A program made the position numbers and the translations under genes. This document shows positions 2,122 to 29,274 of a stretch of DNA of 64,000 nt, piece by piece. The notes beneath the pieces are model-generated. The model worked only from the letters and a program-made list of their open reading frames with translations, did no database searches and had not been told where the DNA came from. This stretch comes from the human T2T-CHM13v2.0 reference genome, Homo sapiens, in NCBI RefSeq assembly GCF_009914755.1, contig NC_060929.1, one strand, 5' to 3'. Each line of letters starts with the position of its first letter. Position 1 is the stretch's first letter.

Positions 2122-2886
2122 AGAAATTTTAATTACTTTTGAGCGTAGCCAAGGGTTGATCATAGAAAACTAAAAAATCCTTGTTTCCTAATAAAATTCC
2201 TACATAGGTTATTATTTTGGAAAGAACTAGATCCAACAAAATTCTAAATGGTATTTAAAAAGCAAAATATTATGCATATAAGCTACATTTGATTTAAAGT
2301 TTTCCAGTTTTATTTTGGCTATCTTTAGATATTAATATTTAATAATAATTATTTATTATTATTAATAAGGCAATATTAATTTAGATATGTAGATATTAAT
2401 ATCTATCTTTAGATATTAATATCTTTAGATATTAGTCAAATTCTGTTTTGCAACAATCCTTTAAGGATGTTTTTATTCCTTATTTTGTTTTCTGTTGAAG
2501 AAAGACTTGTTTTCTGTTCAAGGCATTATCAGAATGGAAATTACAAAATACCAGTTGTATGTAAATCATACATATAAAATGTGCAAATGAATCATACCTG
2601 TTGGGCATAAGACTAATCAAAAGAGCTTTCCTAAATGAGGATCAAAATTGAATTAGAAAAAAATAATTATTTTTAAGAAGGTGTTTTTCTGGTTGTTCAC
2701 ATGGTATTGACTTTGACACAAAACTAGTTTTCTTAATATTTTATTATGTTCAACCAAGATAGAGTGGCAACCATAGTGATGCAACCAAGAAAATATAACC
2801 AAATGTAATAGTGAAATGAATCAAATAATTTCTCTTTACTGCTGTTTTTGTAGTTGAGAAAATAATGCAATATTATTTTTCAACAG

Positions 2887-15525: not shown

Positions 15526-18096
15526 ACATAAATATATCATCTAAATTACATAAGGAAAAAGATTGTAAGTAAAAAATTGCTTATAGTGATTGTCTTTATG
15601 TGAAAAAATTTTGGATCTTTTTCACCTCTCCAGGTTTCTTTGTAATGATTTGTATTTGTTTATAATACCAGTATCCAATTTATTTTGAAAGTAATGCTCC
15701 TGATTTAAGTAAGAATCAGTCCTTGAAATTTTTCTAAAGTTGCCTTATTTAAACTGGCACCTACTGGATTTTTAAAAGGTAAATTACAGTTTTAATATAC
15801 TATTTAAAGTTGGATATAATTAAAAGTATAATTAGTATTATCTAACACAGATCTCAAAAAATACACTATACATGTGCTCCTTTTTTCAAAGTGAATCTGA
15901 CCACTTTACTGATATGGTTCTCTACTCTTTAAGACACTTCAAAATGGAGCCCCAAGTATGCTGAAGTGGGAACTGGGGGGACTTTACTCTTTTGTAGTAC
16001 TCTTAAATTGCTAAAGATTAAACTTGCTCATGTGGATACTATGTGGAGTCATAACATATCTTTACTTTGTGGTTTTAGTATTTATGGGACCTGAAGAATT
16101 ACTTGTTCTCTAGTGAGATTTTTCAGATACGACACAGAAAAGCAGGGAGAAACTGGTAAGATTAAATGATAGCTACATTTATTCAAAGATTGTACCTTAA
16201 ATGGCTTTGAAAGGATACTACTGTATAAAGAATTTTTTTCTTCTATCATCACTCTGAAAAAATATCCACTTTATAACTTATTATTTGCAACATTAATGCA
16301 GATACAAACAACCCTCTGTTGAGAGAATTCTGAGAGTGTCTTACCACAGCTCTCCAGAGCATATTATTTTGCACCTCTTCTGTGAAGGCCGGCAAAATAG
16401 CTTCTTGAAAGGTACTCTTTTAAGTAGTACAACTCAGAACAATCTTTTTACAGTTGTGTTTTGTATAAATATCCTGGATACCTACATGGTAACTATAGTA
16501 CAACCTGATAGTATCAATCTGTTTTTAGGGGGAAGATTTCTTACCTACCGGTCAGGGCTGTTGTCACAGTTATGGGAGGGAAATCAAGTACATATGCATT
16601 AAATGTACTATGTATCAAGTACGTAGCATCATAGTGTGCAAGATTGGATGGTGAATACTTGGTACCCCCAATCCATAAGTCAGAGTATTTTGCTTTTGCT
16701 TAAATTACCAAGCGCTGTATGTTTTGATTTTTAAAAAAAGTTTTTCTCTTACTTCTGAAAATGAATGTTTTTAAAAGTGATGTTAAGCAATTTCACACAA
16801 ATAATGGAACATCACATTAATCTGTTTAAAACCTCCTTTGTCAGATATGTATAGTGTTTTCTGGATGGCTTCTCGTGTGCTTCAAAGACCCTCTTATGTT
16901 TGCTAGGTTCTCTGTTAATGGAAACTGAAGTTTGTAAGAGTTTAAGGCCAAACGTAAGAGGTAGGTATACCATTGTGTTTTTTTGCTCAGAAATTGTTAA
17001 CTACTTCCTCTATTATAAAACAAAGATGACAAAATTACATACTCCGCCTTGTATAATAGCAAATAGACACTTCTTTGTAAAATTTTTCCAAGAGCTTATT
17101 AGTTCTTGACACCGATAAATTGTTTTCCATGGTTGCAGTGTTACAAGGTACACAGAGATTTTGACTTTTCATAATTACTACTATAGAAAAGAAGAATGTT
17201 TTGTGGGGCATGTAGTTATAAGGTTTCAGTTCTCTGATAGCTTTATTAAAAAGGGTTCTTTGAGCTTGGGACAAATATTGTCATTTCCTTCCCCTCATCT
17301 CTCTTCTGTGGTCCAGCTGTCTCTAACAATGCTTGACTATTCTCAGGTGTCTCCAGTAATGCAAAAGGCAAGTATGAGTAGTGAGGGCCAGGTGTGCTTT
17401 TTCTATGAATTTAGCATTTCCTCCAAACCTGTCACCATTTGAACTCTGGCAAAATAAAATCCCTCAAATGGACTCAAGCCCTTTTGAGCTTGTCTTTGAC
17501 TAGAAAGTGAAACTGAACCTATATTATCATCTTTCTTCACTAGTGGGAGCAAGTTCCCACTAGCAAGTGGGAGTGAGTTCCACTCAGCCAGGCCTCAGGA
17601 TCTCCTTAAATGTATTCCTCCAGAGAAAAGATAGTTTTCAGGTTCACTCATTGGTTCAGGTTGGCCACTCCTTTTCTCTTTGGAAGGAACATTGAAGAAT
17701 CTGTAGTAGGGGATAATTGCACTGCAATTTTAATTTTGCTACATACTGAAAAAACGTAGGCACGGCTACTTACGTAAACCATTTCCGCTTTCCTTGAAAC
17801 AAATCTTTCTGCCTAATATAATAAACACTTAATTGACTAAAGCAGAACAGCAGTGTATTTTACTTTGTAAAAAATGGAGTAATAATTTTTCAGTGACATT
17901 TGGAGGTACGGATAATCATATAAATTTAAAAACCTGTCTTTACAAAAATACTGCTTGTGCATGTAATAGAACACTTCTTTTGTATGGGTTTTTGGTGGTT
18001 TTTTTGTTTTTTTCTTTTTTTTTTTAAGCTTAGAATGTCAAAGAAGAGCCCAATAAATTGAAACTCATTTGAGGTCAGTTACAATATTTGATTGTT

Positions 18097-18102
18097 TTTA
18101 TT
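18097..18102 (-). terminator. Candidate distal MCTP1 poly(A) signal
   Basis: tttatt on + = AATAAA on -; U/GU-rich sequence downstream on the minus strand (18040-18065). Confidence 0.55.
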
Positions 18103-19128
18103 TTTTGATTCTTAACCCAGATCCCTCCTTTGAAAAGCACAGATAGAATCATTAAGTTCCAGGAAACCTTTCATGGTGCTCTTAGTTTCTACATTGTATG
18201 ATTGCTTTGGACATTTGATAGTTTTTATTTGCATACTATTTTTTAATGAGATTTTTCAATAGTATTTCTCAAATTTTAGCCATTCAGCTGAAGTAAATCT
18301 TATGTGACTGCCTCTATTCAAATTGCCACTATATAAAAGAAACTGAGGTACCAGAGGGTAACATTTTCACCAAAAAAAAAAGAAAAAAAAATGTTTTGTT
18401 TTCTTTCAGTGAGTTACACCAATCATCCCAGGAAAAAGAATTATAATTGAAAGGAATGACACTATTGTAAGAAAGAATTTACCACATTATTTTCTATGTG
18501 GTTTTAATTCATACTTTACTTTACTGAGCAATTAGAAAAGGCTGATTCTAGATACCCTAATCAAACCAACGAATAGACATCATCTGTACACTCACTCACA
18601 CTAGAGTGTGAAATCACGCTATTCATTTAAAGCCCAAGAATTTAAGCAAGTATTAATTTAGCAATACCTGAGACGTTTTTCAAGAAGTATAATGGTAGCT
18701 GTCTTTACTTGTATTTCTGGAGCAAAAAGGTATAACTGCCTTATACCTTTTTGTTTGTTCTTAATGCTTAGTCAACATTATAAACATTTAGGCCCATTTA
18801 ACAAGTTTATTCGCTGAAATTACTGCCTTTGAATAACATTAATACAAATGTAGACTACTTTGAGCATAGGAGACCTTAGATATGAGATCAAAGTGGAAAA
18901 AAAGCTCCTGTGGTCCCTAGATAAGCATTTACTTCTGAGTTTTTCTTCACTTTTAAATGCAGAATAAAAATTTTATAAAAGATAATTTTAGAAATGTATC
19001 AATTAAATTTGGCTCTCACTGTACTTCAACTCCAGATTTGATTTTAGTATACAATCATTGGTTTGACCGTTGTCTATAACAGGGTCATACAGTTGGTATT
19101 CGATAAATATATCACAGAGTCCTTTTAA

Positions 19129-19276
19129 GAATCTCCCAACTCAGATTATCCTAGTGCATATAGAATGTTCAAAAACTGATTGATTGATTGATAGGTTCTG
19201 TAGGAATTCCAGTTTTTGAACATTCTATATGCACTAGGATAATCTGAGTTGGGAGATTCAATCAATCAATCAGTTT
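19129..19276. repeat. Perfect 50-bp inverted repeat (19129-19178 / 19210-19259, 31-nt spacer) plus an overlapping 19-bp inverted repeat (19173-19191 / 19258-19276)
   Basis: gaatctcccaactcagattatcctagtgcatatagaatgttcaaaaactg is the exact reverse complement of 19210-19259. Confidence 0.97.
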
Positions 19277-20997
19277 GAGTCTGGAACAGTACCAGAATGA
19301 ATGAGAAGTACTATTATGTTCTTTTTGATAAGTGGGGAAAAATTTAAAAGCACAAATACGCATTTCTTATGAATTATCACAACGAATGTCAGTAATAGTT
19401 TATGAATATAAATAATGACTCAGTGAATTTACTCACTAAAAGATACTAAAGGAATATATTTAGTAGTTCACAATATCTATAATAGTTAGCAGTCCAAGTA
19501 GATGTTTGAGTGACATTCAGTCTCTTAAGAAATATTTACATCACAGATCTCAAAATGAAGGCAAGTCAGGCAGCTCTCAAGACAGAATTGCACCTATGTG
19601 AGAAGGGGAAAGAAATAAATAGTTAAAATTTTAACTATACATATTCTGTTTTCAGCCTGTGAATGTAGTAGTTTCTAAAAGCAATGAAGATTTCCCTGAA
19701 TATCACTTTTGTGCCTCAAGCTAGTTCTTATTCCTCTGTTAATGTCATTGGTTGCTCACCCCTCCAGAGGTATTTTCATATAAGAGTCAGAGTTTCAGGA
19801 AAAAGGTCTTATTTGTTTAAACCAAATCTGTTTTTCTCCAAGTGACATATAGTTTTTAAGAATATGCACACAATCCCTCATCAATCTCTGAACCACCAAA
19901 AAAAAAAAAAAAAGGAGTGCTGATTATACGTGGGAAAGATTATTTTCTTTTGTATTTAATACAGTGAATGTGTAGTCAGCATTACCATTGAACTAAACAT
20001 CTGAAATTTGATACAGTGAAACAAATTAGTCATCTGTTAATGGTTACTATCCACTAGATACATCTGAGGTTGTAGAATATCAGGCTTATAGACATTTGAG
20101 TACACATTGTCAGCACAGAACATAAAAGTCTCACATAAGGTATAATTGAAAGTTATTTCAAACAGTTATCTCATCAATAAACTTTCTGTAGTAACATCAT
20201 GTTCATGGAACATTATGTTTTTAGCAACAAACAGTGATGGTATGCAGACAGAAGCATGTCATTTTAAACATGATACATTAAATAAAGCATGTTGAGGTCA
20301 AAGCCTTTCTGTAGAAAGGGAATTTAATTGACATTCAAGCATAGTATATAAACAGATCAAAATAGTTCTATTATAAGAAATAGTATTTAACAACTTATCT
20401 CTAAAATAAAAATACTTTAAAAATCAGCTTCAATGAGATTACATTTATTGTTAAAGAATCTTCCTTTAGAGTGAAATATACATTTCTTTTAGCTTTTCTA
20501 TAGTTTTTCCAGTATAACCCCCACTTTTACCCCATCCAAGTTTATTATTAATAAAGTAGTGCAAAGCATTGTCTGCTGCAATTTCAACTGAGTGTAGTCC
20601 CCTACCAAGTCAGGGAAGTAAGACATTCTCAACCAACCAAATTATTTTTTCTCCAGAGTTATGCTCCCTTAGTATACCAGGGAGTGAGATATAAAAACTA
20701 CTTTAAGAGTCTTGGGAATGCAATTTTTAAGTATAGATTCTATGATAATAGTGAAACATTGATAAAGGCAACCACCACCCCCAAGCAGTTTATTTTATTT
20801 TACAAAACAGGTTTTCATGCATAATCAAGAATGATTTTTTTTAATAAATGAATGTAGTGAAACACTGGCATATCACTTAGCACACTGAATTCTCTACATT
20901 AAAATTCACACTAATAACAAAATCATAGTATGAATTAAAGCATTTCAGTAATCTAATGAGAAAGCAGGTTTTTTTTTTCTCTGAGAGCACTTGAGTA

Positions 20998-21003
20998 TTT
21001 ATT
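20998..21003 (-). terminator. Candidate proximal MCTP1 poly(A) signal
   Basis: tttatt on + = AATAAA on -, ~0.9 kb past the stop. Confidence 0.55.
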
Positions 21004-21885
21004 AAAATATTTTTAGATGCACAGATACAATCTGACACCAAAAGCGATATGGATATAGTTTCCTAGTATTTTTGATAACTGTACTTACTGGGTTGCTAAT
21101 TTGCTAACTAACTGTATAAATTAAAGTAGTGGTAGGTATAAAAATTCAGATAGGCAATCGTTTATAAACTGGCAGTATTTATGTTATGTAGTCCTGTAGA
21201 GATTTTAAGGTTTTAGATGGAATGATTGATTGAAATTCTATAAAGAAAACTTTGTAACCTTCTGAGTATTGATTCTCTTGAGGGAGTGAATGTACCTTCA
21301 CTTATTAGCTTAAAATTAGCCTAAGTCATACCTAAGTAATTTGCACAGGAGTGAATGTCGGGATCTAAAGCCAGAATATATGTTAAATTGAAATGTATCC
21401 ATTCCATTATTCAGGCTTTGGAATTTCCCTCCCTTTTGAAATGTATAAAACATAGAAAAGTGTAATGGATTACTTTTCAGATAAAAAATAGTCGCATTAA
21501 AAAAAAACTTTAAAATCAAATCGACATTTACAATTGATGTAGATTTAATCAGAGCACAGGTGAGTATTTAATCCACTAGTAATTAGATAAGAATATATCT
21601 TCCAGTGTTATCATTCTTATATTTGTTCTTTCAGTGTGTTATATTATTATCCACAGCTAACAAGGTTTTGACACAGCAGTAGCAAAACCTTTATCAAGTT
21701 GAGTCTGTACAATAGAAGTATATATTCAAAGACATATGCCTTTGTACACTATTTACAGATTCTCTCGATCATGATAAAAAGGCAAAATAAATAAAAAGCA
21801 GAAAGAAAGGAAATGCTGCTGAGGCTGAGGGCTTTTTCTTTTATCTTCCCAAACAGATGCTGGTCTCCTCAGTGCTGGGAGCTGG

Positions 21886-21957
21886 CTAGCCAAGATTGTT
21901 TTTCTTTCTTTTATATGGGCTATGAGAAGGATCTGGTTTCAGTTCTTGGTATTGCAC
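21886..21957 (-). CDS. MCTP1: MCTP1 terminal coding exon VQYQELKPDPSHSPYKRKKNNLG*
   Basis: Minus-strand tttaaacag| acceptor at 21958-21960; TAG at 21888-21886; in phase with the previous exon. Confidence 0.95.
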   Translation of the reverse strand: MQYQELKPDPSHSPYKRKKNNLG

Positions 21958-25206: not shown

Positions 25207-25316
25207 CCCAGACAAGGACAATGTATCTCAGCGGAATGCAGTACAGGATGGCTGTGAACACACAGAGGGCTACAATGGCCAGCCAGCTTAAGAATGGGAC
25301 AGTCCAGTTGAAAGTA
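25207..25316 (-). CDS. MCTP1: MCTP1 coding exon, transmembrane segment (N)[36 protein letters not shown](G)
   Basis: Minus-strand ttccattcag| acceptor, TGGG|gtaagt donor; hydrophobic; phase 2 to 1. Confidence 0.96.
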
Positions 25317-28300
25317 CTGAATGGAAAATTAACACATCAGCAATCTGAGTACTTCATACTTTTTTCAAATATTAAAATACATATGATTCTAACTTGGGAC
25401 CTAGTTAGTCTGCATTTCTCTCTGGAATAGATTCCAATTGTAATAGGTTATCAGAGGACGCAGGCTAGCCATAATCTGCTCAGTTCCATGAACACAGGGC
25501 CCAAGTAAAGAGTCTTGCTGCCACCTCCTCCAGATTGTTCCAGGTGACTTCAGAGTCTAAAGCCATTGTGCTACTTGGGTGACTCCCCACATGAAAGAAG
25601 ATCTTTATTTTTCTTCTTTATTTTTCTACTGCTAAGACTAGTACCCATCCTTGTTTTCTCTGGCTTTTCAGAGGGGAATGCCCCTGGACCCACCATTCTT
25701 CCTTCTATCAACTCTCAGTATTCCCCATATTGGGAATAAAATGTTGCCAGCAACTCTTGGTAGATGTAACTCTTACATGGTTGTGTTAAAAATCCTCTGA
25801 ATGTTAGAATTCCTTAAACTACTCACTTGTCCTACCTCAGCTATGTTTGAAATAGAACTGGAAATCAGGAAAGAGGAACAAAACAGCCTTGCAAAAATTC
25901 ACCTCTTACTGCCCTTCTTCCCAGAAGTACATAGATAATTAATAAAATCAGCATTGCTTACTATTATCTCTCATGTACTCCTTGTGAAGGACAGCATTCT
26001 GGCAAAAGTAATTGGTAACGTAGAGGACTGGGTCAGAGAAGGCTGCAAGACTCAGTATTGACAACAAGACATGATAACAAATGGAAACGAGACCAATGAA
26101 CAGAAGTAGAAGTTACAAAAAAAAAAAGTACTGAGGAGATGGGAAGGAATTTACTGAGACAAAAAGGGAAAAGAAAAATGAAGACAAAGGCAAAAACCAT
26201 GATGTAAAAATGTTTTTAAAAGTAGAAAATCAGGGAACTGGAACATGGGAAGATTATAATCACTTAAGGCTTTTTGTGTGGAATCCAGTCTGGTACTTCT
26301 TAAGAGTGTGCCAAAATCATAAAGAAAATAGAAACACTGTGTAGAGCCTCCAGGGTTGGGCATATAAATATATCACCATTTACAGGCATACCATTGCATT
26401 CTTTGAAATTTCTCCTAAGTGTTCATCCACTAAAGAGGAACTAACAAACATATCATGTCCTCTGACCCTTTAGCATGAGAGCCAAGAAGTTAGCAGATTT
26501 GTATTCAAAGCCTAGATTCTATTATGTGGATTTAGCTGAGTCAACCTCTCTAACCTTTTCCCCATTTATAAAATGGGGATAGCTTTTATTCTGTCAAGGA
26601 AGACTGGTTGTGATGGTAATATGTTTATGTGAATCAAGATGAAATTATTAGAACTAATCAACTCAAGGAATCTCATTTATGGCACTTTTTTCTTATGAGA
26701 CAGAAGGCCCCTAAGACACTTCAGCAAAACATATTGTTCATGTGGATAAATGTGTTTTTTATTTCTTCTAATTTCCTGGTATTGTATATTGTACTTACTT
26801 GAGGTGAGTTTTTTTTTTCAGGGCAATTTTGACCCAATAAAGGATGATTGCTAAAGAGATTTTCTTCTATACAATGCCTCAGCATAATACTTAGGAATTA
26901 GTTGTTCCTTACCTTTGTGGCATGTAGCTTGCTTTTTGTCTCTCTCTAGGTCAAAATTGTTTCCTAAAATTTTTTTCTACTAAAAGAGCCAATGTTGGGT
27001 CAATCTGGTTATCCTATTTTCAGTAATCCCTGGTGTCTGGCTTTTCTGTCTTTGTCTTCTTCCTCTTATGGTCAAGAGTGAGCATCTGCAACTCACCAGG
27101 TAAAGGATCATGCCTTCCCTTCCTGATGGATACCTGTGCCTCCCTTGCTTCTGCTTGCTTGTGGAGAGAACAGAAGGCTAAGGGGATCTGCTTGCTTTCC
27201 TGTGGCTCAGCTCAGAGTCATCCATCACACGACTCCACGTGTGAGGGCACTGGCTCTTCACTCAGAAAACCTTCCTTCTGGGCAGCCCCACTGAAGAACT
27301 CCCTGTGTTCTCCTTACTCCTATTGGAAGGATAAATGGCAAAGAATCCCCACCAGTGTAGCTGTTAGAAAAAATAAAATAAAATAAAACTGCCCTTTTCT
27401 ATTTCTACACTCTGCATTATGGAATCTAAATCTAGAATATGATCTTCCCCCAAAAAGGGATGCAATTCAAGAAAGTTCTGGAATGATTATTTAGTAACAA
27501 GACATGGTAAGTATAGAGCCCTTTCATTTTGTGCTTAAAGATTGCTTTTGAGTCTGCTTTCTGGGTAGATGCTTTTAATTCCATGTGACCCCCAGGAGAA
27601 TTTCTTTTTTTTAGCATCCAAAAGATCATTTTGCGGGAGAGATGGCTCCTCCAAGACTCACTGGCCCCTGTGCCATATTCCTGTACCTTAGCATAGGAAG
27701 TTCTACAAAACCCAGGTTTCCCCAAGGCTGAACCACTGCCAAGATCTGGTCATATCCCTCAGCTAGTCATGTTTTCCAGCCAAGCATCTGCTCTGAGGCC
27801 TTCTACCACCTAGAGTTACAAAGGAGTTTCTTCCTCTCAGGCATTCACTGCCTGATCCATGGTCTTTTGGTATAAATGAGATGTTTCTGTCAGGTATCAG
27901 CACACTGTGTACCCCAGATAAAAGAAAGACAGCACTCAATGGGGAAATGCCCCAAATTGAGGGCTTCACACTGTTTCAGTGGATAGCGTGTGGAGGACAG
28001 GTAAACATTCTTAGAGATGAGAGGAAGAAGGAGAGAGAAAAGATACGGGAATAGTCTTCTGAAATCCAAGACTGAATGTTTCCTAAAGGCACATCTCGGA
28101 GTGAGATGGGGGCTGTTCTGTCTAATGTAAGAAAGTGGAAACTCAGCACCTAGACATGTGGAAATATACAAAATAAAATGCATTATCCCTTACAACATGA
28201 AAGGCGCGAGATGAATGACTCACACCTTTAGTTTAAATAATTTACTCCTTTCAAATTCTATGTATGCCCAAGGATTCAAATCTGTAGAAAACTTCTGGCT

Positions 28301-29164: not shown

Positions 29165-29274
29165 TTCTTAATCCTTTCGCCAAAGGAAGCCACTTCATCT
29201 AGGATGTTCTGGACACTGACACATACCTCCTGGATGGCATAGATTTTATTTATAAATCCCTTTTTTTCACTGTC
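29165..29274 (-). CDS. MCTP1: MCTP1 coding exon [36 protein letters not shown](N)
   Basis: Minus-strand acceptor ttttag| (29275-29277), donor AA|gtgagt (29164); 110 nt; the ASFGERIKN motif is typical of the MCTP C-terminal domain. Confidence 0.95.

What the first reader, a model, noticed from the sequence alone, without database searches (positions are those of the whole stretch)
19210..19276. The hairpin can be reconstructed as a 61-nt three-step template-switch insertion
Seen: CAGTTT occurs at 19210-19215 and again at 19271-19276. Removing 19216-19276 (61 nt) leaves ...taggaattc CAGTTT gagtctgg..., and every removed base is an inverted copy of the adjacent upstream DNA. Inference: the nascent end CAGTTT folded back onto AAACTG (19173-19178) and copied to 19129. 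It then jumped via a TC/GA microhomology to 19191, copied tcaatcaatcaatcagttt, and returned to the original template using the regenerated CAGTTT. This fits FoSTeS/MMBIR or Pol-theta snap-back synthesis. Zero mismatches suggest a young, possibly human-specific or polymorphic, event.
Basis: partly seen in the sequence, partly recalled or inferred. Interest (0 to 1): 0.72.

Follow-up and report, generated by a model that had tools for sequence, protein, structure and literature searches.

The report
Template-switch hairpin in MCTP1 3'UTR
A perfect 50-base-pair hairpin in the tail of the human MCTP1 gene looks like the scar of one copying accident in which the DNA polymerase twice copied nearby sequence backwards, a kind of mutation that is already well described.

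Summary
Window 19129-19178 and 19210-19259 form a 50-nt perfect inverted repeat with a 31-nt spacer. 19173-19191 and 19258-19276 form a second, 19-nt perfect one. CAGTTT stands at 19210-19215 and 19271-19276. This is far beyond chance: 20 surrogate windows reached arms of 11-15 nt. The locus is single-copy in its own genome and reaches no Rfam gathering score.

Junction microhomologies are 6, 2 and 6 nt. Removing the 61 nt restores a 6-bp hairpin with the switch point in its loop.

Two parts are not shown. The mirror polarity, with the left 63 nt as the insert, has microhomologies of 0, 6 and 1 nt; it is disfavoured, not excluded. Zero mismatches bound the age only to under about 23-51 My, so "human-specific" does not follow. 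No primate outgroup was available.

The kind is known. Three switches copying two fragments are published for hsa-mir-561, and germline templated insertions from up to five templates are described. It is a new member of a known kind, of modest interest.

The parts
19129..19172 (+). Source segment A (44 nt); template of the first inverted copy
   Evidence: Its reverse complement equals 19216-19259 exactly; part of inverted repeat I1
19173..19178 (+). AAACTG (B): proposed landing site of the nascent CAGTTT end; shared by both source segments
   Evidence: Overlap of I1 and I3; 6-nt microhomology at switch 1
19179..19191 (+). Source segment C, within a TTGA tetranucleotide tract; template of the second inverted copy; ends in GA
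   Evidence: I3. The period-4 tract spans 19177-19192 (16 nt), one base beyond the copied part, against 15 nt on the right
19192..19209 (+). Uncopied spacer D (18 nt); with C it forms the 31-nt loop of the hairpin
   Evidence: loop 19179-19209, 31 nt
19210..19215 (+). CAGTTT, taken as ancestral: the primer end that left the template. The insert boundary is ambiguous over these 6 nt
   Evidence: 6-nt match at switch 1 and at the return
19216..19259 (+). Inverted copy of A (44 nt); first templated fragment
   Evidence: Exact reverse complement of 19129-19172
19258..19276 (+). Inverted copy of B+C (19 nt). It overlaps the first fragment by TC (2-nt microhomology) and ends in the regenerated CAGTTT
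   Evidence: I3; 2-nt match at switch 2
19207..19212 (+). TTCCAG: left half of a 6-bp hairpin that exists only when 19216-19276 is removed
   Evidence: it pairs with 19281-19286 across a 7-nt loop that holds the switch point. 2.8% of window positions lie in such a loop
19281..19286 (+). CTGGAA: right half of that hairpin
19129..19259 (-). RNA hairpin in the MCTP1 3'UTR (gene on the minus strand): 50-bp perfect stem (one further closing pair in the predicted fold), 31-nt loop
   Evidence: MFE -91.4 kcal/mol, z -13.65. The hub's gene table places exon 18075-21957, with coding sequence from 21886

Best explanation
This is the scar of a single serial template-switch mutation in the germline of a human ancestor. 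I take the pre-event allele to have read A-B-C-D-CAGTTT followed directly by 19277 onward.

Proposed steps:
1. A growing 3' end finishing in CAGTTT (19210-19215) left its template at a small hairpin-prone site. It paired with AAACTG 31 nt upstream (19173-19178), either on the same strand (snap-back) or on the sister template.
2. It copied 44 nt backwards, down to 19129.
3. It dissociated, re-paired through TC/GA at 19190-19191, and copied 17 nt backwards to 19173. This regenerated CAGTTT.
4. That 6-mer let the end re-anneal at its original place on the intact template, and normal synthesis resumed.

The net result is a 61-nt insertion, a 50-bp perfect inverted repeat, and therefore a 50-bp double-stranded stem in the 3'UTR of every MCTP1 mRNA that carries this exon.

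Shown: the geometry, the perfect identity, the microhomologies, single-copy status and the folding energies. Inferred: the polarity, that it was one event, the replicative switch-and-return nature of the lesion, and the age, which lies anywhere from polymorphic to a few tens of millions of years. No function of the hairpin is shown; most likely it is a neutral scar.
For: - Two perfect inverted copies tile the 61 nt exactly.
- Junction microhomologies are 6, 2 and 6 nt under this polarity. This is in line with templated insertions in human genomes: 138 of 155 and 135 of 148 resolvable junctions had >=1 bp of microhomology, and tumour junctions averaged 3.7 bp (PMC8421209, passages).
- The template lies 19-87 nt from the insertion point, inside the 100-nt range used to define short-range switches (PMC7954356) and MMB-TIs.
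- Removing 19216-19276 restores a 6-bp hairpin (19207-19212 with 19281-19286) with the switch point in its 7-nt loop. Only 2.8% of window positions lie in such a loop, and nothing comparable spans the junction of the mirror model.
- The tetranucleotide tract runs one base beyond the copied part on the left (16 nt) but not on the right (15 nt).
- In the two shortest contexts folded (51 and 66 nt), the minimum-energy DNA fold of a strand ending at 19215 pairs CAGTTT with AAACTG.
- The locus is single-copy, so it is not a repeat family.
- Published precedent for three switches copying two fragments: hsa-mir-561 (SI Fig. S3 legend of PMC10710096; main text).
Against: - No ancestral or outgroup allele was seen, so polarity, the single-event claim and the age are untested.
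- In the three longer contexts folded (87, 96 and 116 nt), the minimum-energy fold does not use the CAGTTT/AAACTG pairing. Where it appears it is worth only -1.2 to -1.6 kcal/mol.
- The hairpin at the reconstructed junction is a post hoc observation.
- The second switch rests on only 2 nt.
- The locus is not in the great-ape template-switch list of PMC7954356: 0 rows at chr5:9470xxxx. That list should tend to catch a human-, chimpanzee- or gorilla-specific 50-nt event. The GRCh38 coordinate I searched for is recalled, not verified.
Confidence: 0.62

Rival explanations
1. Mirror polarity. The right side (19210-19276) is ancestral, and the left 63 nt (19129-19191, or 19128-19190) is the templated insertion. 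It too would be built from two inverted fragments in one serial template-switch event.
For: The inverted-copy relation is symmetrical: 19129-19178 is the reverse complement of 19210-19259, and 19179-19191 that of 19258-19270. The middle switch would use the 6-nt CAGTTT repeat. About one junction in ten of published germline templated insertions has no microhomology: 17 of 155 and 13 of 148 (PMC8421209).
Against: Entry and exit microhomologies are 0 and 1 nt. No hairpin of 4 bp or more spans the reconstructed junction. The left tetranucleotide tract is one base longer than the right and continues into uncopied DNA. The 6-bp hairpin restored by removing the right 61 nt would be a coincidence, with a background of 2.8-6.1%.
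Confidence: 0.12
2. More than one event. Either an older, imperfect inverted repeat was later made perfect by quasi-palindrome correction or repeated short template switches, or the 44-nt and 17-nt fragments entered in two separate mutations.
For: Template switching was first described as converting near-perfect into perfect inverted repeats (PMC7954356 introduction; PMC10710096). Repeated hits at one locus are documented for hsa-mir-4713 and mmu-mir-3086. Perfect identity would then say nothing about the age of the arms.
Against: Two separate insertions at the same nucleotide are unparsimonious. An intermediate allele with the first fragment alone would have returned to the template without microhomology (read; my inference). 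The circular-permutation layout, with the insert starting and ending on the same 6-mer, is what one continuous excursion gives.
Confidence: 0.13
3. Same product and polarity, different lesion. A two-ended double-strand break was repaired by polymerase-theta end joining (snap-back SD-MMEJ), with two rounds of fold-back synthesis before the ends were joined.
For: [quoted passage not shown] The abstract of PMC11292364 says Pol theta extends stem-loops from two 3'-terminal base pairs (search listing only), which would suit the 2-nt second switch.
Against: SD-MMEJ needs a microhomology repeat that spans the break. Here the regenerated CAGTTT has no partner on the right flank, which starts at 19277 with GAG. 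One of the two joins would therefore be blunt, whereas return to an intact template uses all 6 nt. A 61-nt insert is long for this pathway: yeast fold-back insertions are mostly about 5-34 bp (PMC11724301, abstract in the search listing only).
Confidence: 0.15
4. Not a mutation scar of this kind at all: a palindromic transposon remnant (MITE-like), an RNA gene, or an assembly artefact.
For: A 131-nt palindrome superficially resembles a miniature inverted-repeat element. Rfam gives a sub-threshold match to a miRNA precursor model (MIR7994, 50 bits).
Against: The locus is single-copy in its 3.1-Gb genome in both searches. The sequences flanking the palindrome are not direct repeats. Perfect arms do not fit an old element. 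The Rfam match is half the gathering score (50 against 100 bits) and scores the same on both strands, as any perfect hairpin would. The hub's gene table lists no RNA gene here. An artefact would not be expected to show ordered 6, 2 and 6 nt microhomologies.
Confidence: 0.03

Closest known systems
Multi-switch template-switch mutation that created hsa-mir-561 (Monttinen, Frilander and Loytynoja 2023, PMC10710096, SI Fig. S3)
   Same: A long insertion that a simple reciprocal switch cannot explain. It is accounted for by three template switches that together copy two separate nearby fragments and create a hairpin (SI legend; main text).
   Different: That event is placed in the ape ancestor by outgroup comparison and gave an annotated miRNA. 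Here no outgroup was seen, the stem is 50 bp (longer than the 35 bp the paper gives as the strongly preferred pri-miRNA stem length), the site is a 3'UTR rather than an intron, and no small RNA is annotated.
Short-range template-switch mutations, four-point model (Loytynoja and Goldman 2017, PMC5453318; Walker et al. 2021, PMC7954356)
   Same: An inverted copy of DNA within about 100 nt appears as an insertion or mutation cluster and creates a new inverted repeat able to form a hairpin. In great apes 65.0% of gold-standard events lengthen the sequence, the median copied fragment is 12 nt and the maximum 128 nt.
   Different: The four-point model has one excursion (two jumps); this locus needs two excursions (three jumps). 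The 44-50-nt fragment is in the upper tail of sizes. The locus is not in the published great-ape list (coordinate recalled).
MMBIR-type templated insertions, MMB-TI (Osia et al. 2021, PMC8421209)
   Same: Defined as insertions of 10 bp or more that are inverted copies of a template within 100 bp, with microhomology at the junctions. [quoted passage not shown]
   Different: Those were called as differences from the reference genome in two individuals and in tumours. This one is part of the assembly itself. It was not found in their supplementary file by gene name or by recalled coordinate prefixes.
Snap-back synthesis-dependent MMEJ / polymerase-theta templated insertions (Yu and McVey 2010, PMC2943611; Kent et al. 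2016, PMC4912351, search listing only)
   Same: A 3' end folds back on a short primer repeat, is extended, dissociates, and may go through several rounds, leaving inverted repeats at the junction.
   Different: That pathway joins two ends of a break through a microhomology on the far side. Here the far side offers none, and the product looks like a return to an unbroken template. The insert is also longer than is typical of that pathway.

Membership tests
Short-range template-switch mutation (TSM) | The new sequence is a reverse-complement copy of DNA within about 100 nt | tested here: met
   All 61 nt are exact inverted copies of 19129-19189, which lies 26-87 nt to the left of the insertion point
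Short-range template-switch mutation (TSM) | A parent (outgroup or ancestral) sequence lacks the copy, and the switch explains the difference better than substitutions and indels | not testable with these tools
   No primate genome other than the window's own is held.
Short-range template-switch mutation (TSM) | One excursion only (four-point model: two reciprocal jumps) | tested here: not met
   Two non-colinear inverted fragments are needed (19216-19259, then 19258/60-19276), which means three jumps. This places it in the multi-switch class of SI Fig. S3 of PMC10710096
MMBIR-type templated insertion (MMB-TI) | Inverted insertion of 10 bp or more with its template within 100 bp | tested here: met
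   Fragments of 44 and 17 nt (50 and 19 nt with microhomology), template within 87 nt; definition from PMC8421209
MMBIR-type templated insertion (MMB-TI) | Microhomology at the switch junctions | tested here: met
   6, 2 and 6 nt if the right side is derived; 0, 6 and 1 nt under the mirror polarity
Snap-back SD-MMEJ / Pol-theta end joining | An inverted primer repeat on one side of the break | tested here: met
   AAACTG at 19173-19178 and CAGTTT at 19210-19215
Snap-back SD-MMEJ / Pol-theta end joining | A microhomology repeat spanning the break, so that the newly made 3' end pairs with the other end | tested here: not met
   The regenerated CAGTTT has no copy at the start of the right flank (19277 onward). 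It matches only the original position on an intact template
Snap-back SD-MMEJ / Pol-theta end joining | Dependence on polymerase theta | not testable with these tools
   Needs genetics or biochemistry
microRNA gene | Match to a curated RNA family at its gathering score | tested here: not met
   Best match is MIR7994 at 50 bits against a gathering score of 100, equal on both strands. 0 of the 10 listed matches reach their cut-off
microRNA gene | A transcribed stem-loop of about 35 bp with an apical loop of 10 nt or more, processed into ~22-nt products | tested here: inconclusive
   It is transcribed as part of the MCTP1 3'UTR (hub table). The stem is 50 bp and perfect, the loop 31 nt. No small-RNA data are at hand, and no MIR gene is listed in the hub's table
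Miniature inverted-repeat transposon | Many related copies in the genome, with target-site duplications | tested here: not met
   Only the locus itself matches in the 3.1-Gb genome. The flanks 19120-19128 and 19260-19268 are unrelated

The most novel reading that the evidence does not exclude
The 61-nt insertion is recent (great-ape or human lineage, possibly still polymorphic), and the 50-bp perfect double-stranded stem it placed in the MCTP1 3'UTR is not inert. It would be cut or bound by Drosha/Dicer, ADAR or Staufen. It would then be either a nascent small-RNA locus born in one mutational step inside a 3'UTR, or a lineage-specific cis-regulator of MCTP1 mRNA level. The evidence excludes neither. 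Its only quantitative guide is that 0.9% (57 of 6,054) of suitably sized template-switch hairpins in human genes are annotated miRNAs (PMC10710096).
Probability: 0.06. Interest if true: 0.6.

Novelty: new member of a known kind. Interest (0 to 1): 0.3.

Why it matters
It is an unusually clean example of a multi-step template switch. There are no later mutations, all three junctions are readable, and a hairpin-prone site sits at the point of departure. Current detection algorithms model a single excursion and miss such events (PMC10710096), so it could serve as a test case for multi-switch callers. It also shows how one mutation can place a 50-bp perfect RNA duplex into the 3'UTR of a gene. In a 348-nt context the predicted folding energy changes from -51.5 to -117.0 kcal/mol. 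Beyond that it is one more instance of a process already counted in tens of thousands of putative cases in human genes.

Tried and rejected
Searches for an ancestral allele:
- Paralogues in the own genome that might keep the pre-insertion state: none, only the self-match.
- A 24-nt flank pattern in the prokaryote genome collection, in case of host contamination: 0 hits.

Rejected identities:
- RNA family: Rfam at E <= 10 over 18000-20500 gave 10 matches, none at its gathering score.
- Transposon reading: rejected on copy number and flanks.

Published lists searched for the locus, all without a hit:
- Walker 2021 S2 Data: 4,016 rows, 0 at chr5:9470xxxx. S3 Data: 0 for MCTP1 or 9470.
- Monttinen 2023: the 3 readable supplements gave 0 for MCTP1, chr5, 9470 or 9518. 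One file (sd02) was too large to read.
- Loytynoja 2022: 11 of the 22 listed files searched, 0 hits. Files 1 and 13-22 were not searched.
- Osia 2021: one file of 2.9 million characters, 0 hits.

All coordinate prefixes rest on my recalled GRCh38/hg19 position of the MCTP1 3' end, so these negatives are weak.

Attempts to check that recalled offset:
- A paper search for MCTP1 with 9470 gave 2 irrelevant papers.
- The neighbouring listed event (chr5:94713355) is intronic, as the offset predicts. No inverted repeat of 9 nt or more (7-nt seed) was found at the predicted window place, so the offset stays unverified.

Paper searches:
- MCTP1 with 'template switch': 0 papers.
- A looser search listed 10 of 4,694 papers, none mentioning MCTP1. 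It is not a clean negative.

I considered one turn round a 61-nt loop closed by the GA/GA microhomology as a single-excursion alternative. It gives the same product as two hops and cannot be told apart from it, so I did not rank it separately.

Full report
**What is there.** Window 19129-19178 and 19210-19259 are 50 nt long and perfectly complementary, with 31 nt between them. Window 19173-19191 and 19258-19276 are 19 nt long and perfectly complementary.
- CAGTTT stands at 19210-19215 and again at 19271-19276, and AAACTG at 19173-19178.
- The 61 nt at 19216-19276 equal the reverse complement of 19129-19172 followed by that of 19173-19189.
- The two copied pieces overlap by TC (19258-19259).

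Naming the left side A (19129-19172), B (19173-19178), C (19179-19191) and D (19192-19209), the right side reads B'A'C'B'. This is a circular permutation of the reverse complement of ABC that starts and ends on the same 6-mer. The stretch has no CpG and is 34% G+C.

**More than chance.**
- The whole 64-kb window holds 3 perfect inverted repeats with arm >=14 nt and loop <=200 nt. Two of them are these; the third is a 15-nt one at 2391-2424.
- Twenty first-order Markov surrogates of the window gave longest arms of 11-15 nt.
- The MCTP1-sense (minus) RNA folds at -91.4 kcal/mol, z = -13.65. The plus-strand DNA folds at -58.8 kcal/mol, z = -14.21. In each case 0 of 200 shuffles did as well.

**What it is not.**
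- The window lies in a 3.1-Gb human assembly. A 201-nt and a 1301-nt query found only the locus itself, plus the palindrome hitting itself in reverse. It therefore belongs to no repeat family and has no paralogue.
- The flanks of the 131-nt palindrome are not direct repeats.
- Rfam at E <= 10 gave 10 matches, none at its gathering score. The best, MIR7994, scored 50 bits against 100 on both strands alike, as any perfect hairpin would.
- The hub's gene table lists no RNA gene here.
- By that table the site is in the MCTP1 3'UTR on the minus strand, about 2.6 kb past the stop codon and about 1.05 kb before the transcript end.

**Mechanism.** The layout is what a serial template switch gives. I scored the microhomology available to the 3' end at each of the three switches.
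It is formally possible because the inverted-copy relation is symmetrical. Its values are 0, 6 and 1 nt.

For comparison, 138 of 155 and 135 of 148 resolvable junctions of human germline templated insertions have at least 1 bp of microhomology, and tumour junctions average 3.7 bp (PMC8421209, passages). The mirror model is therefore disfavoured, not excluded.

Two further internal clues point the same way:
- The tetranucleotide tract is 16 nt on the left and runs one base into uncopied DNA. On the right it is 15 nt.
- Removing 19216-19276 brings 19207-19212 and 19281-19286 together as a 6-bp hairpin whose 7-nt loop holds the switch point. Only 2.8% of window positions lie in such a loop, and 6.1% in loop or stem. 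The junction of the mirror model has nothing comparable. This clue was found after the fact and weighs little alone. It does agree with the report that unusual secondary structure marks initial switch sites (PMC7954356, abstract passage).

Folding a strand that ends at 19215 gave mixed results. It pairs CAGTTT with AAACTG in the two shortest contexts (51 and 66 nt; -1.2 and -1.6 kcal/mol) but not in the three longer ones. The snap-back is possible but weak, and it would need a polymerase or the sister template to hold it.

**Which lesion.** The regenerated CAGTTT matches the original position on the template, but nothing at the start of the right flank.
- A switch-and-return on an intact template uses microhomology at all three steps.
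- A two-ended break joined by snap-back SD-MMEJ needs a microhomology repeat that spans the break (PMC2943611), so one of its joins would be blunt.

I therefore rank a replicative or one-ended mechanism above Pol-theta joining of a two-ended break. This is inference. Whether the switch was within a strand or between strands cannot be told from the product.

**Age.** A change at any of 130 sites would break a pair, and none has occurred. With recalled rates of 0.45-1.0e-9 per site per year:
- the 95% upper bound on the age is 51-23 My;
- the probability of zero changes after 6.5 My is 0.68-0.43;
- under a flat prior, the probability of an origin after the human-chimpanzee split is 0.32-0.57.

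Perfect arms thus do not show a human-specific or polymorphic event. The great-ape event list of PMC7954356 has no row at chr5:9470xxxx. It should tend to catch a lineage-specific 50-nt copy, since its longest fragment is 128 nt. This leans slightly towards an older event or one fixed in all three species compared. However, the GRCh38 coordinate I searched is recalled, and a two-fragment insert might fail that study's filters. The offset is only loosely supported: the neighbouring listed event is intronic, as the offset predicts, but I found no inverted repeat of 9 nt or more at the predicted window place.

**Comparison with what is known.** Short-range template switching was described as a one-step source of hairpins in 2017 (PMC5453318, passages). 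The findings of Monttinen et al. (PMC10710096; Results read in full):
- 53,666 putative events in human gene regions since the primate ancestor;
- 31,007 of these formed a new RNA stem;
- 6,054 were of miRNA size, of which 57 (0.9%) are annotated miRNAs;
- cases needing more than two jumps exist and escape their algorithm.

The legend of their SI Fig. [quoted passage not shown] That is the architecture seen here. [quoted passage not shown] The locus is therefore a new member of a known kind.

I found it in none of the lists I could search, and no paper in the library holds both MCTP1 and 'template switch'. These negatives are limited in two ways: some supplements were unreadable or not searched, and the coordinates were recalled.

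**Consequence.** In a 348-nt context the predicted RNA folding energy is -117.0 kcal/mol. It is -51.5 without the right copy and -45.1 without the left copy. Whichever polarity is true, the event placed a 50-bp perfect duplex in the 3'UTR. From general knowledge of dsRNA-binding proteins, which I did not test, such a duplex could be a substrate for ADAR, Staufen, Drosha or Dicer. Nothing here shows that it is, and the base rate argues for a neutral scar.

**Verdict.** The kind is known and the interest is modest.

Noticed in passing
window 2391-2424: The only other perfect inverted repeat in the window with arm >=14 nt and loop <=200 nt. It has 15-nt AT-rich arms and a 4-nt loop, and by the hub's table it lies in an SLF1 intron. 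Arms of this length turn up in some of the surrogate windows.
   Followed up: no
window about 27741 (predicted from a recalled coordinate offset); MCTP1 intron between exons 25207-25316 and 29165-29274: Walker et al. 2021 list a 'partially_significant' template-switch event with human as the descendant at GRCh38 chr5:94713355-94713358, event 3004, in their Introns sheet. If my recalled offset is right it falls in this window. I found no inverted repeat of 9 nt or more (7-nt seed) within 27550-27950, so the placement is unconfirmed.
   Followed up: partly
window 19281-19295: A small 4-bp hairpin (CTGG ... CCAG) just right of the insert appears in both the RNA and DNA folds. It shares its left half with the 6-bp hairpin that removing the insert restores, so the departure site is rich in short self-complementary motifs.
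   Followed up: partly
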